A stretch of 64,000 nt of DNA from Patescibacteria group bacterium (GCA_041650515.1 JBAZLA010000004.1:23748-87747), one strand, 5' to 3'. Positions 4,741 through 40,505 are shown, numbered from the stretch's first letter. A program made the numbers and translations. The notes: generated by a model not told the origin, from the sequence alone.

Positions 4741-4843
4741 AATGGGCCGGCCGGCCCGCCTCCGTCCGCAACGGCGGATTACGACGGGTAAAGATTCTAC
4801 CTCGGCGCTTTGCGCCTCGCTTCTGCCCGTATAAATCCCTCCA
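4741..4843 (-). repeat. GC-rich tRNA-like unit C ending in a copy of the tRNA-Tyr 3' terminus (..CCGGCCCA)
   Basis: 103-nt GC-rich block in an AT-rich genome. The minus-strand 3' end GGGCCGGCCGGCCCA repeats the last 8 nt of tRNA-Tyr. Internal stem-loops: gcgaggcgc-aaa-gcgccgagg and ccgccgttgcggacgg. Confidence 0.3.
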
Positions 4844-4881: not shown

Positions 4882-4957
4882 TGGGCCGGGAGGGATTCAC
4901 CTCGCTCCGCTCGCCCTGGGTCCGCCCGCGGCGGACCCGTGCAAATCCCACATCCAG
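4882..4957 (-). ncRNA. tRNA-like unit A (tmRNA-like 5' motif; 3' end identical to the last 13 nt of tRNA-Tyr)
   Basis: Minus strand reads GAUUCUGGAUGUGGGAUUUGCAC-GGGUCCGCC-GCG-GGCGGACCC-AGGGCGAGCGGAGCGAGGUGAAUCCCUCCCGGCCCA. The perfect 9-bp GC hairpin is shared with unit B (39621-39645). Its 3' end CCCTCCCGGCCCA equals the tRNA-Tyr T-stem/acceptor 3' end. GAUUCUGGAU and GGGAUUUGC resemble the E. coli tmRNA 5' region (quoted from memory). Confidence 0.3.
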
Positions 4958-14821: not shown

Positions 14822-14873
14822 ATATAATTTAAAATACACCAACTTTATCTTAAAAGCAACCAAAATATTAAAC

Positions 14874-15032
14874 CCGGCGGGGGTTTGGGGGTCGTTTGCG
14901 GCGCGGAGCCGCAGTCCCCGTCTGGCCGATACCGTCCAGGGGGCAAGGCGGGTTGATCCACATGAAAGTGAACAACACCCGCGCCTCAAACGCCCCCAAA
15001 GGTTTTTTGTTACTTTTTTGGCTCCAAAAAAG
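14874..15032. repeat. Structured GC-rich intergenic element R2 (copy 2 of 2)
   Basis: Outer stem tttgggggtcgtttgcggcgcgg / ccgcgcctcaaacgcccccaaa with compensatory a-u to g-c change relative to R1. Different inner hairpin. Conserved aaagtgaacaacac. Terminal AT hairpin gttacttttttgg..ccaaaaaagtaa. Confidence 0.55.
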
Positions 15033-32775: not shown

Positions 32776-32945
32776 AAAGCTCCGAGGGTGGGACTCCTTC
32801 GCCCAGCAGCGAAGCCTGGGTTTGGCGGCGCCTTTGGCGCAACGCCAAACCCTTTGAATTCACCCCGCGACATAAGCAGTCATGTCGCTCTCTCCTCATT
32901 CGCCTCGCTCATTCAGAGAGGGTGAATTCAAACCCACAACCAAGT
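32776..32945 (-). pseudogene. tRNA-Asn 3'-half duplicate interrupted by a 133-nt structured insertion in the T-loop
   Basis: 32776-32796 (aaagctccgagggtgggactc) and 32930-32945 (aaacccacaaccaagt) are identical to the T-arm/acceptor part of the intact tRNA-Asn 200 nt away. The 133 nt between them (32797-32929) forms nested stems: 10-bp gaattcaccc..gggtgaattc, 7-bp gcgacat..atgtcgc, 7-bp tttggcg..cgccaaa and 6-bp cttcgc..gcgaag. Confidence 0.6.
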
Positions 32946-38621: not shown

Positions 38622-39467
38622 TTATGTCGGTTTGTTGCCGGTAAAGATACAATACCTGATCAATCCTTTGTCGGCCATTCTATAACACTCAAACCCAGCG
38701 GTGGTGTTAATAAAAAACTTTTGCAATCGAAAAAATTTTACAAATCTATATGGTAATATAGAAATTTTATGCAATCGGTAAAATGATGGAAGAACATTCT
38801 CGGTTATGTCTTGTTCTTTTATATCTTCGAACCCAGCCTCTTTAATAATTTTTGTAAATTGGTCGTGCCGAAAATCTTTTAGCCCGATCATTGCCGAGCC
38901 TTCTATGACGGTATCAAGCATTTTCTTTTCCCACTCGGAGAACTCTTCATCAGGCGCAATAGTGTATTCAAAAAAAGCTATCTTACCACCGGGCTTCAAA
39001 ACTCGAAAGAATTCTTGGAGTGTTTTTCGAATATCAGGAGAATGAGAAAGCGTCTCAGTGGTATAAATCGCATCAAAATAATTATCAGGAAAATTTGTAA
39101 ACGAATAGTCCATCATCTGATAATCGGTTTTATCTTGAACGCCGAGTCTACTTGCTAATTTCCGAGCTTTTTTAATTTGAAAAAGAACGATATTGATCCC
39201 AAAAACTTTTGGTCCGTATTTTTTAGCCAGATACGTTGAAACAACACCTTGTCCGCATCCAGCGTCTAAAACAATCTGCCCATCGCTTAGCTCTAAATTC
39301 TTCGCCACTAAATCTTGCAAAAAAAACTGCGCTTCTTTCTCGCTGATGTCTGCTTTTCGGCTGGGGTAATAACCAAGGTGTATTGACCCCCGAAGGATGT
39401 AATCATATCCGAGCCTTGACTCCAGACTTGAGTAGTACTTAAAAACTTTTTGCTGATCAGTATTCAT
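38622..39467 (-). CDS. Class I SAM-dependent methyltransferase
   Basis: 281 aa. Motif I VLDAGCGQGV and post-I acidic residue. Confidence 0.7.
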   Translation of the reverse strand: MNTDQQKVFKYYSSLESRLGYDYILRGSIHLGYYPSRKADISEKEAQFFLQDLVAKNLELSDGQIVLDAGCGQGVVSTYLAKKYGPKVFGINIVLFQIKKARKLASRLGVQDKTDYQMMDYSFTNFPDNYFDAIYTTETLSHSPDIRKTLQEFFRVLKPGGKIAFFEYTIAPDEEFSEWEKKMLDTVIEGSAMIGLKDFRHDQFTKIIKEAGFEDIKEQDITENVLPSFYRLHKISILPYRFVKFFRLQKFFINTTAGFECYRMADKGLIRYCIFTGNKPT

Positions 39468-39549
39468 AGTAAATCTTCAACAGAAATGTTCAAGGTCTTA
39501 GCGATCTTTGAAAAACACTTTGGTCAGCCATGCCGATGAAAAATTGTCT

Positions 39550-39660
39550 TGGCGGAGAGGGCGGGATTTCCGCCTCCCCTTCAACTCCCCCGATATGCAT
39601 CGGGGTCGCTCAGGGTCGTTGCCCTGGGTCCGCCCGCGGCGAACCCGTTCGAATCCCCTC
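39550..39660 (-). ncRNA. tRNA-like unit B (acceptor-like stem, tmRNA-like GGAUUCGAACGGG motif, encoded CCA), homologous to unit A
   Basis: Minus strand: GGAGGGG-AUUCGAACGGG-UUCGCC-GCG-GGCGGACCC-AGGGCAACGACCCUG-AGCGA-CCCCGAUGCAUAUCGGGG-GAGUUGAAGGGGA-GGCGGAAAUCCCGCC-CUCUCC-G-CCA. 5' GGAGGGG pairs with 3' CCUCUCC (one G.U), nearly identical to the tRNA-Ser acceptor. The 9-bp hairpin has a U.G where unit A has C.G. Confidence 0.35.
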
Positions 39661-39711
39661 CACATCTTAACGGAAATCTGCCGCCCACAAAAGTGGGCGT
39701 CAAATTTCCAT
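39661..39711 (-). repeat. Long AT/GC hairpin spacer between tRNA-Ser and unit B
   Basis: ggaaat-ttgac-gcccac-tttt-gtgggc-ggcag-atttcc. Confidence 0.5.
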
Positions 39712-39796
39712 CGGAGAGGGCGGGATTCGAACCCGCGGTGAGTTTCCCCACACACGCTTTCCAAGCGTGCGCACTAGGCCTCTATGCGACCTCTCC
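39712..39796 (-). tRNA. tRNA-Ser (anticodon GGA), type II, CCA not encoded
   Basis: Minus strand: GGAGAGG U CGCAUAGAGGCCUAGUGCG CACGC UUGGAAA GCGUG UGUGGGGAAACUCACC GCGGG UUCGAAU CCCGC CCUCUCC G. Confidence 0.85.
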
Positions 39797-39859
39797 AAGA
39801 TAAATAAATGCAAAGGTATTCTAGCTTATTTCCGCCAATTTTTCAATAATCAAAAAGCG

Positions 39860-39888
39860 ACGGAACTAACCGTCGCCCTTTAAGACTT
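39860..39888 (-). terminator. Rho-independent terminator after the thioredoxin-like gene
   Basis: Minus strand gggcgacgg-uuaguu-ccgucgc followed by UUUUU. Confidence 0.5.
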
Positions 39889-39896
39889 AAGCTAAG

Positions 39897-40505
39897 TTAT
39901 TTGTTTAAATCAGTAATTAAAGCTTCAAATTCGGCTTTCTCGGCAGCTAAATCATCAGCGCTCTCATGACCATTGCCAACTCGATAGTATTTACAGCCAA
40001 AAACAAAAGTGGGAATTGAACCATTAGGATTAAACTCCTGGTAAACCGCTTGAGCCGCCGCCGGAAAAGTTGTTTCTACTGCTGGAGTTAAAGTATCATC
40101 GCCAGTGTCTATTTCCCAGTGATAAGCAACAATCTGACCAGCCGCCACGGCCTTACTGACTACCGCGTCAAAAGTATCCTTAATCCAAGTGCAATGGGGA
40201 CACCAAGTGGTGGTAAATAAATAAACTACCGGCTTACCATTTTCCTCGCAAATCTCGGCATTCTTTTTTTCGGAAAAAGTAGTAATACCAGTTACTGTTG
40301 TCGCCTGTGATTCAACTCCTAAATTCTGAGACGGAGTCTGGACATTAACGACCGTACCACTATTGTCCGGCGTGGCTGTTTTATCAACAGTACTCAAAAA
40401 TAAAAGACTAAAAGCAATCACACCCACGATTGCCAAACCAGCAAATAGACCAAACAAAAAACTGGTCTTAGTCGTATTGGGGGCTACATTTTTGTTGTCA
40501 GCCAT
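39897..40505 (-). CDS. Membrane-anchored thioredoxin-fold thiol-disulfide oxidoreductase
   Basis: 202 aa. N-terminal TM helix; CxxC active site in FTTTWCPHCTWIKDTF. Confidence 0.6.
   Translation of the reverse strand: MADNKNVAPNTTKTSFLFGLFAGLAIVGVIAFSLLFLSTVDKTATPDNSGTVVNVQTPSQNLGVESQATTVTGITTFSEKKNAEICEENGKPVVYLFTTTWCPHCTWIKDTFDAVVSKAVAAGQIVAYHWEIDTGDDTLTPAVETTFPAAAQAVYQEFNPNGSIPTFVFGCKYYRVGNGHESADDLAAEKAEFEALITDLNK

What the first reader, a model, noticed from the sequence alone, without database searches (positions are those of the whole stretch)
39550..39796. Second tRNA + AT hairpin + GC-rich tRNA-like unit module (tRNA-Ser / unit B), homologous to the unit A module
Unit B (39550-39660, minus) sits 3' of tRNA-Ser-GGA behind a long hairpin, just as unit A sits 3' of tRNA-Tyr. 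B and A share about 35 nt, including the 9-bp hairpin. A has C.G where B has U.G, so the change keeps the pair. B has its own acceptor-like closure: 5' GGAGGGG pairs with 3' CCUCUCC, which is almost the tRNA-Ser acceptor. It is followed by G and an encoded CCA. B also contains GGAUUCGAACGGG, matching the tmRNA GGAUUCGACGGG motif. Each unit mimics the acceptor end of its neighbouring tRNA. This points either to a tRNA-3'-end-targeting mini-element or to a family of tRNA-like RNAs matured with their partner tRNAs.
Basis: seen in the sequence. Interest (0 to 1): 0.75.

Follow-up and report, generated by a model that had tools for sequence, protein, structure and literature searches.

The report
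tRNA-linked repeat element after tRNA-Ser
The GC-rich stretch behind the serine tRNA gene is one copy of a widespread family of folded elements that sit behind tRNA genes and end in an exact copy of that tRNA's tail; it is the same kind of "tRNA-linked repeat" known, and still unexplained, in E. coli since 1978.

Summary
Unit B (39661-39550, minus strand) follows tRNA-Ser(GGA) and a hairpin. It ends in a 16-nt exact copy of the tRNA's 3' end, and shares a 28-nt core with unit A behind tRNA-Tyr. A third unit follows tRNA-Asn, and a fourth, A2, follows unit A.

It is not tRNA-like or tmRNA-like. "GGAUUCGAAC" is the reverse complement of the neighbouring tRNA's own T-loop. It pairs with the T-loop and T-stem part of the terminal tRNA copy.

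One metagenome scan found the same layout behind at least 12 kinds of tRNA, 38 cases with a tRNA just upstream. The contigs are low in GC; one is Moranbacteria. Twenty units align into a three-way junction with strong covariation. A model built from them finds units C and B.

The closest known thing is the E. coli tRNA-linked repeat (TLR; RttR, RrB). It has the same position, 3' identity, X'/X pairing, tandem copies and a GGCCCGAAGGG hairpin. Sequence and covariance models do not connect the two groups.

Most likely it is a read-through trailer RNA that borrows the tRNA's 3' end. Its function is unknown. A DNA-level mobile-element origin is not excluded.

The parts
39818..39846 (-). Promoter-like site TTGAAA-17-TAGAAT, about 20 nt upstream of tRNA-Ser
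   Evidence: 10 of 12 matches. No promoter-like site lies between the tRNA and unit B.
39711..39797 (-). tRNA-Ser(GGA), with no encoded CCA
   Evidence: ARAGORN; Rfam tRNA, 55.3 bits.
39672..39709 (-). Spacer hairpin GGAAATTTGACGCCCAC-TTTT-GTGGGCGGCAGATTTCC
   Evidence: Sequence and fold. It is not a canonical intrinsic terminator by the scan. Spacers in the family are hairpins with unconserved sequence.
39647..39661 (-). X': GGAGGGGATTCGAAC, the reverse complement of the tRNA's T-loop and T-stem 3' side plus part of the acceptor 3' strand. It is the 5' strand of helix P1.
   Evidence: The 11 nt at 39657-39647 are an exact reverse-complement match. X' tracks the tRNA T-loop in 31 of 31 modules. 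P1 covariation is shown.
39626..39646 (-). P2 hairpin GGGTTCGCC-GCG-GGCGGACCC, shared with unit A
   Evidence: The family P2 helix has 12 pairs with compensatory changes.
39621..39625 (-). Junction AGGGC (family consensus ACCC-AGGC)
   Evidence: Invariant ACCCAGGC in alignment A1.
39569..39620 (-). P3 region. It contains a small hairpin (39625-39612) and the 7-bp hairpin CCCCGAT-GCAT-ATCGGGG (39605-39588). This part diverges from the family consensus.
   Evidence: Fold. Model R1 aligns it with low posterior probability.
39553..39568 (-). X: exact copy of the last 16 nt of tRNA-Ser, from the T-loop AAU through discriminator G. It is the 3' strand of P1 plus a tail.
39550..39552 (-). CCA after the copy
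   Evidence: The tRNA gene itself lacks CCA. CCA follows 9 of 30 family units.
4882..4949 (-). Unit A behind tRNA-Tyr: X' GGGATTTGCAC (4949-4939), P2 (4938-4918), X AATCCCTCCCGGCCCA (4897-4882)
4743..4842 (-). Unit A2, a second unit in tandem with A. It starts with GGAGGGATTT (reverse complement of the tRNA-Tyr T-arm) and ends in CCGGCCCA.
32779..32873 (-). Unit C behind tRNA-Asn: X' 32866-32853, P2 32852-32818, X GAGTCCCACCCTCGGAGC (32796-32779)
   Evidence: Model R1 scores it 28.8 bits, E = 4.9e-6.

Best explanation
Unit B is a member of a family of tRNA-linked repeat (TLR) elements.

**What is shown**
- The module is: tRNA, spacer hairpin, X', P2 hairpin, ACCC-AGGC junction, P3 hairpin or hairpins, then X.
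- X is an exact copy of the tRNA's 3' end, starting in the T-loop.
- X' is the reverse complement of the start of X.
- On the tRNA-sense strand the unit folds into a three-way junction. It is closed by X':X, about 8 bp that cover T-loop positions 57-60 and T-stem positions 61-64.
- The rest of the acceptor 3' strand is left as a tail.

**What is inferred**
1. RNA polymerase starting at the tRNA promoter reads through the spacer hairpin and transcribes the unit.
2. The borrowed tRNA 3' end lets the enzymes that finish tRNA 3' ends cut the unit out. These would be RNase Z or exonucleases, plus the CCA-adding enzyme where CCA is not encoded.
3. The product is a discrete, stable, GC-rich small RNA made in step with its tRNA.
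4. The direct repeats X1 and X2 allow tandem gain and loss of units.
5. The near-universal T-loop gives the homology for spread to other tRNA genes.
6. Template switching within the X1-hairpin-X' quasi-palindrome could keep X' matched to the tRNA.

What the released RNA then does is unknown.
For: **Position and strand**
- The unit is always downstream of the tRNA and on the same strand. 38 metagenomic cases have a tRNA upstream on the same strand, in most of them ending 40-70 nt upstream. They cover at least 12 tRNA identities.
- In the window, 3 of 4 tRNAs have a unit.

**Terminal copy and X'**
- Exact 3'-end copies run 13-21 nt.
- X' matches the tRNA's own T-loop in 31 of 31 modules.
- The next two P1 pairs covary: 93% paired against 50% in shuffles, 0 of 2000 shuffles as high.

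**Structure**
- In the three-way junction 96.3% of cells are paired against 85.2% in shuffles. 21 pairs show compensatory changes, and 0 of 500 shuffles reach this. Sliding the partners drops pairing to 34-62%.
- There are 32 G-U cells against 2 A-C cells. The inner helix P3b is lost when the antisense strand is folded.

**Conservation**
- The unit core is 88-97% identical between orthologous loci whose spacer and flanks are only 54-66% identical.
- Model R1, built without any window sequence, finds unit C (E = 5e-6) and unit B (E = 0.008).

**Transcription signals**
- There is a promoter-like site before tRNA-Ser and none before unit B. The spacer hairpin is not a canonical terminator.

**E. 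coli TLRs share the layout**
- They have 18-19 nt of 3' identity to the upstream gene and lie between dual terminators. They are transcribed by read-through and processed (PMC8144298).
- They have X':X pairing for the tyr, arg and lys tRNAs.
- They carry a GGCCCG(A/U)AGGG hairpin between P2 and X. In the CPR sequence pool, 7 of 9 occurrences of that 11-mer sit at exactly this place.
Against: - No expression data exist for any CPR unit. Co-transcription and processing are inferred.
- Helices P1 to P3 are almost purely Watson-Crick and fold equally well on the other strand. A DNA-level palindrome would look the same.
- The distribution among relatives is patchy. The same core sits next to different tRNAs within one genome. 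That looks like mobility rather than a conserved gene.
- Orphan units occur without an adjacent tRNA. In L148 a 376-aa ORF is bracketed by copies of the tRNA-Pro tail.
- Homology to the E. coli TLRs is not detected by nhmmer, by model R1 or by the Rfam RtT model.
Confidence: 0.6

Rival explanations
1. The unit is a DNA-level element. It would be a miniature, non-autonomous integrative or mobile element, or the scars of one, that targets the T-loop-to-3'-end segment of tRNA genes. The inserted DNA restores the tRNA 3' end and pushes the original end downstream, where it becomes X. The hairpins act in DNA or single-stranded DNA. Any transcript is incidental.
For: - The repeat starts inside the T-loop and runs to the end of the gene, as at the attachment sites of tRNA-targeting integrases (my knowledge: Williams 2002).
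- Among intact copies, CCA follows only the distal copy in 5 cases and only the proximal copy in none. The relative L005 has tRNA-Ser(GGA) with encoded CCA and no unit.
- The same core lies at different tRNAs in one genome.
- Presence among relatives is patchy.
- Tandem arrays carry a duplicated X plus spacer.
- In L148 an ORF and a unit are bracketed by copies of X.
- G-U pairs are few in P1 to P3.
- Small GIY-YIG nuclease genes sit at several of these tRNA loci.
Against: - The insert is 100-180 nt and encodes nothing. No recombinase is linked to it, and the window has no GIY-YIG gene.
- An ordinary integrase uses one attachment site, not the tails of a dozen different tRNAs.
- The core is conserved while the flanks diverge, with compensatory changes and sense-strand G-U pairs.
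- The E. coli counterparts give stable, processed RNAs.
- There are no copies in viral contigs.
Confidence: 0.22
2. The units are neutral debris. They would be decaying tandem duplicates of the tRNA's 3' part, invaded by GC-rich palindromes, with no function and no dedicated way of moving.
For: - Degenerate direct copies of tRNA parts lie nearby: window 32945-32918, L003 and the E. coli tyrT TLR.
- Some copies of X have decayed, as in L089, L170 and L200.
Against: - The same ordered core (X', P2, ACCCAGGC, P3, X) recurs behind at least 12 tRNA types in several lineages.
- It shows covariation and far higher conservation than the spacers.
- The units are 67-80% GC in a 40% GC genome.
Confidence: 0.1
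3. Unit B would be a tRNA-like or tmRNA-like RNA with its own acceptor stem and CCA, which is charged or otherwise acts like a tRNA.
For: - The minimum-energy fold of unit B is cloverleaf-like, with a 7-9 bp closure, a T-arm-like hairpin and G-CCA.
- The string GGAUUCGAACGGG resembles the tmRNA 5' region.
Against: - ARAGORN finds no tRNA or tmRNA in the unit.
- The best Rfam tmRNA match is 13.4 bits against a threshold of 47.
- The motif is the reverse complement of the neighbour's T-loop. It changes to ATTTGCA behind tRNA-Tyr and to ATTTGAA behind tRNAs with a UUCAAAU loop.
- The closure beyond about 8 bp is not supported across the family.
- CCA follows only 9 of 30 units.
Confidence: 0.04

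Closest known systems
E. coli tRNA-linked repeats (TLRs: RttR/RtT behind tyrT-tyrV, units in the lys and arg tRNA operons, RrA/RrB/RrF behind 5S rRNA). Egan & Landy 1978 and Rudd 1999, as summarised in PMC8144298.
   Same: - They lie immediately downstream of a tRNA or rRNA gene, on the same strand.
- The last 18-19 nt are identical to the 3' end of the upstream gene (here 16-18 nt).
- There are one to five tandem copies per locus.
- They are flanked by hairpins or terminators.
- An upstream X' is complementary to the start of the copy: tyr GGGGAAGGAT/ATCCTTCCCC, arg GGGAGGAT/ATCCTCCC.
- The order is X', a short linker, a hairpin, GGCCCG(A/U)AGGG, then X. The rrnB TLR even carries GGATTTGAAC.
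- Their function is unknown.
   Different: - There is no detectable overall sequence similarity.
- In the CPR units X' reaches into the T-loop, P2 is GGGU...ACCC rather than GUUGC...GCAAC, and P3 often carries an extra hairpin with a 6x6 purine internal loop.
- CCA is usually not encoded.
- The host is Patescibacteria, not Enterobacteria.
- RrA/B/F bind Hfq and CsrA. Nothing comparable is known here.
Attachment sites of integrative elements that target tRNA genes
   Same: [quoted passage not shown]
   Different: The insert is about 100-180 nt with no integrase. One core is associated with many different tRNA tails. The interior has RNA-type covariation.
tRNA-like processing signals in longer transcripts (plant mitochondrial t-elements, MALAT1 mascRNA)
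   Same: A tRNA-derived feature at a transcript end may recruit tRNA-processing enzymes.
   Different: Those fold as cloverleaves or minihelices. Here only the 3' strand of the tRNA is copied, and it pairs with a dedicated complement.
tmRNA tRNA-like domain
   Same: A GGAUUCGA-type string near the 5' end, and a 3' end like that of a tRNA.
   Different: There is no tag reading frame, no pseudoknots and no ARAGORN or Rfam call. The string derives from the neighbour's T-loop.

Membership tests
tRNA-linked repeats (TLR, as defined for E. coli) | Located in a tRNA or rRNA operon, immediately downstream of the gene and on the same strand | tested here: met
   Unit B starts about 50 nt after tRNA-Ser. 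Units A and C sit the same way. 38 metagenomic cases have a same-strand tRNA upstream.
tRNA-linked repeats (TLR, as defined for E. coli) | The 3' end of the element (18-19 bp in E. coli) is identical to the 3' end of the upstream gene | tested here: met
   16 nt for B, 16 for A and 18 for C. The range is 13-21 nt in 30 modules.
tRNA-linked repeats (TLR, as defined for E. coli) | One to five copies in tandem per locus | tested here: met
   A plus A2 behind tRNA-Tyr. Tandem units occur in L116, L148, L156, L174, L183, L184 and L185.
tRNA-linked repeats (TLR, as defined for E. coli) | Common descent with the E. coli TLR sequences | tested here: inconclusive
   nhmmer, model R1 and the Rfam RtT model find no link. 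The motif order and the 11-mer GGCCCG(A/U)AGGG are shared at the equivalent place. K-mer sharing with the tyrT TLR exceeds all 300 shuffles at k = 10.
tRNA-linked repeats (TLR, as defined for E. coli) | Transcribed by read-through with the upstream RNA and processed to a discrete RNA | not testable with these tools
   The only evidence is the placement of promoter-like and terminator-like sites.
Rfam RtT RNA (RF00391) | Score at or above the family's gathering threshold | tested here: not met
   No RtT match at E <= 10 in 39450-39900, nor at E <= 1 in the seven CPR loci searched. The four E. coli units score 133-137 bits in the same run.
tmRNA | tRNA-like domain plus a tag reading frame, recognised by ARAGORN or Rfam | tested here: not met
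   No tmRNA. The permuted tmRNA model scores 13.4 bits against 47.
tRNA | Cloverleaf with an anticodon arm, recognised by ARAGORN or Rfam | tested here: not met
   Only the four canonical tRNAs are called.
tRNA-targeting integrative element | Direct repeats of the tRNA 3' segment flank the inserted DNA | tested here: met
tRNA-targeting integrative element | An integrase or recombinase is encoded between the repeats | tested here: not met
   Only 142 nt lie between the tRNA's 3' end and its downstream copy X behind tRNA-Ser, too short to encode a protein. The neighbours are a methyltransferase and a thioredoxin-like protein.

The most novel reading that the evidence does not exclude
TLRs may be one ancient class of structured trailer RNA shared by Enterobacteria and Patescibacteria. 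They would have a common three-way-junction core (X':X helix, P2, and a CCC-GAA-GGG hairpin). That core would be actively re-tailored to the 3' end of whichever stable RNA lies upstream, whether a tRNA or 5S rRNA. This would imply either a conserved role in maturation or quality control of stable-RNA 3' ends, or a templated copying mechanism that nobody has described.
Probability: 0.3. Interest if true: 0.8.

Novelty: new variant of a known kind. Interest (0 to 1): 0.6.

Why it matters
TLRs have been an unexplained feature of E. coli tRNA and rRNA operons for more than 45 years, and one copy sits in the rrnB T1-T2 cassette. In the literature I could search they are treated as an E. coli family whose location and sequence are conserved in many Enterobacterales.

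This work gives the old question comparative leverage:
- The same architecture is abundant in Patescibacteria.
- The structure is supported by covariation.
- The X':X pairing rule also holds in E. coli.
- The two groups share a hairpin motif.

The constraints are now explicit, and they can be tested directly by mutagenesis in E. coli.

There are also practical consequences for annotating CPR genomes:
- The units create spurious ORFs.
- They may break assemblies next to tRNA genes.
- No Rfam family covers them.

Tried and rejected
- **Genome scan with the A/B core.** An exact scan of species-representative genomes with the A/B core hairpin gave 0 hits.
- **Orthologous loci via the methyltransferase.** I tried to reach orthologous loci through the downstream methyltransferase. 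Synteny is not conserved.
- **Sequence and model links to E. coli.** nhmmer with the E. coli TLRs against the CPR pool found nothing. Model R1 did not find the E. coli TLRs or unit A. The Rfam RtT model did not find the CPR units.
- **Viral contigs.** The scan gave one chance hit.
- **Full acceptor-stem pairing.** I tested whether X' extends into a full acceptor stem. Support stops after two further pairs.
- **Canonical K-turn.** The purine internal loop does not fit a canonical K-turn on inspection.
- **T-arm mimic.** A T-arm mimic made from the P3 3' strand and X has no covariation.
- **Encoded CCA.** CCA as a family feature is rejected: it follows 9 of 30 units.
- **Joint folding of A and B.** MAFFT misaligns the 3' ends.
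- **Literature.** Searches for CPR tRNA-like RNAs and for RttR were unproductive.

Full report
**1. The observation**

All features below are on the minus strand.
- tRNA-Ser(GGA) lies at 39797-39711 (ARAGORN; Rfam).
- A 38-nt hairpin follows at 39709-39672.
- The GC-rich unit comes next. It reaches 76% GC in a window that averages 40%.
- The unit ends in AATCCCGCCCTCTCCG (39568-39553). This is identical to the last 16 nt of the tRNA, and CCA follows it.
- The unit begins with GGAGGGGATTCGAAC. Eleven of these bases are the exact reverse complement of the tRNA's T-loop region.

The 9-bp hairpin GGGTYCGCC-GCG-GGCGGACCC occurs twice in the window, in units B and A, against 0 expected. A C-G pair in A is a U-G pair in B.

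- tRNA-Tyr is followed by two units, A and A2.
- tRNA-Asn is followed by unit C.
- Each unit ends in a 16-18 nt exact copy of its own tRNA's tail.

The window comes from a Patescibacteria genome assembled from a metagenome.

**2. What the "tmRNA motif" really is**

The string at the 5' end of each unit is the reverse complement of the neighbouring tRNA's T-loop.
- It is ATTCGAA behind tRNA-Ser.
- It is ATTTGCA behind tRNA-Tyr, whose T-loop is the unusual UGCAAAU.

I call this string X', and the terminal tRNA copy X. Neither ARAGORN nor Rfam sees a tRNA, a tmRNA or any other family in the units.

**3. The family**

An exact scan of species-representative genomes with the A/B core found nothing. 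Loci fetched through the methyltransferase gene were not syntenic.

Among 80 loci fetched through RpoD, L018 has a unit of the same architecture at the orthologous place, behind the rpoD-linked tRNA-Asn.

I then scanned metagenomes with a pattern drawn from A, B, C and L018: GGATTYGAA, 0-1 nt, GGGT, 8-38 nt, ACCCAGGS.
- 38 matches have a tRNA upstream on the same strand, in most of them ending 40-70 nt upstream.
- These tRNAs are Thr, Pro, Ser (four anticodons), Arg, Asp, Glu, Met, Gln, Tyr and Leu.
- Nearly all of these units end in a 13-21 nt exact copy of that tRNA's tail.
- More units turned up at contig edges, in tandem arrays, or without an adjacent tRNA.
- One such contig carries a TrpRS identical to that of Candidatus Moranbacteria GW2011_GWC2_37_73.
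- Viral contigs hold no copies.

**4. Structure**

X' matches the tRNA's own T-loop variant (G or A at position 57) in 31 of 31 modules. The two pairs beyond GGAUUY:RAAUCC covary with the T-stem: 93% are paired against 50% in shuffles, with 0 of 2000 shuffles as high. Further extension into an acceptor-like helix is not supported.

Twenty long-form units align well (A1). RNAalifold gives a three-way junction made of these parts:
- P1, which is X':X.
- A GAA linker.
- P2.
- An AGG linker.
- P3, stacked directly on P1.
- A conserved 6x6 purine internal loop (GAAGGA / GGGUGA) leading to a further hairpin.

The support for this fold is strong:
- 96.3% of cells are paired, against 85.2% in shuffles.
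- 21 pairs show compensatory changes.
- 0 of 500 shuffles reach the observed values.
- Sliding the 3' partners drops pairing to 34-62%.

Strand evidence is weaker.
- G-U cells outnumber A-C cells 32 to 2. Folding the opposite strand keeps P1 to P3 but loses the inner helix.
- Sense folds are more stable than antisense folds by about 2 kcal/mol on average.

Model R1 contains no window sequence. It finds unit C (28.8 bits, E = 4.9e-6) and unit B (17.4 bits, E = 0.008), but not the short unit A.

Between two orthologous tRNA-Thr loci the conservation is uneven:
- flanks and spacer: 54-66% identical
- unit core: 97% identical
- middle part of the unit: 88% identical

**5. Comparison with what is known**

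E. coli has 22 "tRNA-linked repeats" at 10 loci. They are defined by 18-19 bp at their 3' end that are identical to the 3' end of the upstream tRNA or rRNA gene. Their function is unknown. The three copies behind 5S rRNA lie between dual terminators, are transcribed by read-through, are processed, and bind Hfq and CsrA (PMC8144298).

I read the E. coli loci directly and found the same layout.
- The tyr, arg and lys TLRs each have an X' complementary to the start of X. For tyr this makes a 10-bp P1.
- A hairpin, GUUGC...GCAAC, follows X'.
- The invariant GGCCCG(A/U)AGGG comes next, and then X.
- The rrnB TLR reads CAAATCCGCC-GGGA-GCGGATTTGAAC, then a hairpin, then GGCCCGGAGGG, and ends in the 5S 3' end.

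Short-form CPR units read GGAUUYGAA, P2, AGGCCCGAAGGG, RAAUCC. In the 1.92-Mb CPR pool, 7 of the 9 occurrences of the E. coli 11-mer lie exactly between P2 and X.

The interior of the tyrT TLR shares 10-mers with 9 CPR units, against 0.6 expected; 0 of 300 shuffles reach this. The tyrV TLR does not.

Formal similarity searches fail: nhmmer, model R1 and the Rfam RtT model. I therefore file the CPR units as TLRs by architecture. Common descent is probable but unproven.

**6. Mechanism**

The anatomy, the covariation and the co-orientation with the tRNA are shown. Co-transcription is inferred:
- There is a promoter-like site before tRNA-Ser and none before unit B.
- The spacer hairpin is not a canonical terminator.

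It is also inferred that the borrowed 3' end recruits the tRNA 3'-end maturation enzymes, by analogy with RrB.

CCA is not a family feature. It follows 9 of 30 units. Among intact copies it follows only the distal copy in five cases and only the proximal copy in none.

That asymmetry, together with four other observations, keeps a DNA-level mobile or integrative origin alive:
- The distribution among relatives is patchy.
- The same core sits at different tRNAs.
- Orphan units exist.
- In L148 an ORF is bracketed by copies of X.

The two readings are compatible. The element could spread as DNA and also be expressed as RNA.

**7. Verdict**

- The tRNA-like and tmRNA-like interpretation is rejected.
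- The reading as a family tied to tRNA 3' ends is upheld and linked to a known but unexplained class.
- The function remains unknown.

Noticed in passing
window 14860-14985 (+): A GC-rich island of about 125 nt (up to 78% GC) lies in an intergenic region and is followed by a run of T. It has no Rfam match even at E <= 1. It may be an unannotated structured RNA.
   Followed up: partly
window 33072-33062 and 32990-32980 (-): tRNA-Asn is bracketed by an 11-nt inverted repeat (GACGGCAAAGC ... GCTTTGCCGTC) followed by a run of T, so leader and trailer can pair. In L003 a 13-nt bracket surrounds tRNA-Ser(CGA) in the same way.
   Followed up: no
window 32945-32918 (-): A degenerate direct copy of the 3' half of tRNA-Asn (ACTTGGTTGTGGGTTTGAATTCACCCTC) lies between tRNA-Asn and unit C. 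The X' of unit C matches this copy better than it matches the tRNA itself.
   Followed up: partly
L003 1662-1860: An intact tRNA-Arg(CCT) sits between what look like the 5' and 3' halves of a second Arg-like tRNA. GC-rich complementary segments flank the intact gene (ACCTGCCCGACTTGC ... GCAAGTCAGGCGGGC). This looks like a tRNA gene nested inside a split pseudo-tRNA.
   Followed up: no
L003 1955-2155; L028 2726-2977; L148 6553-6813; L156 160-411 and 788-1054; L174 2199-2450; L022 16289-16555; L019 11287-11553; L096 1700-1993: Small GIY-YIG nuclease genes (Pfam PF01541 checked for three of them) lie right next to tRNA genes or TLR arrays in Patescibacteria-like contigs. In L003 and L028 the tRNA-Ser 3' end is duplicated on both sides of the gene, as for a homing element. 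The window has none.
   Followed up: partly
L148 7425-9059: A 376-aa ORF with no Pfam match is bracketed by two copies of the tRNA-Pro 3' end. A full unit sits just before the distal copy. The layout resembles a tiny island integrated at the tRNA tail.
   Followed up: partly
L134 and L152 (L152 minus strand, about 70 nt before the unit core): A truncated tRNA-Asn has its T-loop followed by a perfect 18-bp palindrome (TTCGAATCCCTCTAACAC ... GTGTTAGAGGGATTCGAA). There is no distal copy of the tRNA tail, so here X' can pair only with the proximal T-loop.
   Followed up: partly
L210 (E. coli rrnB, between terminators T1 and T2): The rrnB TLR lies between terminators T1 and T2 (this T1-T2 spacer is, to my knowledge, part of many cloning vectors). 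It contains a relic tRNA T-arm hairpin (CAAATCCGCC-GGGA-GCGGATTTG) although it follows 5S rRNA. This suggests it descends from a unit once linked to a tRNA.
   Followed up: no
L008, L011, L013: Three contigs of relatives end at or within about 30 nt after the rpoD-linked tRNA-Asn. This would fit assemblies breaking at a repeated element behind the tRNA.
   Followed up: no
window 39553-39533; L157 about 8420-8400; L185 about 1550-1530: The sequence after the distal tRNA-Ser copy is similar in three unrelated contigs: CCAAGACAATTTTTCATCGG (window), CCAAGACAATTTTTTATCGG (L157) and CCAACACAATTTATTATCGG (L185). The repeat or module may therefore extend beyond X behind tRNA-Ser.
   Followed up: no
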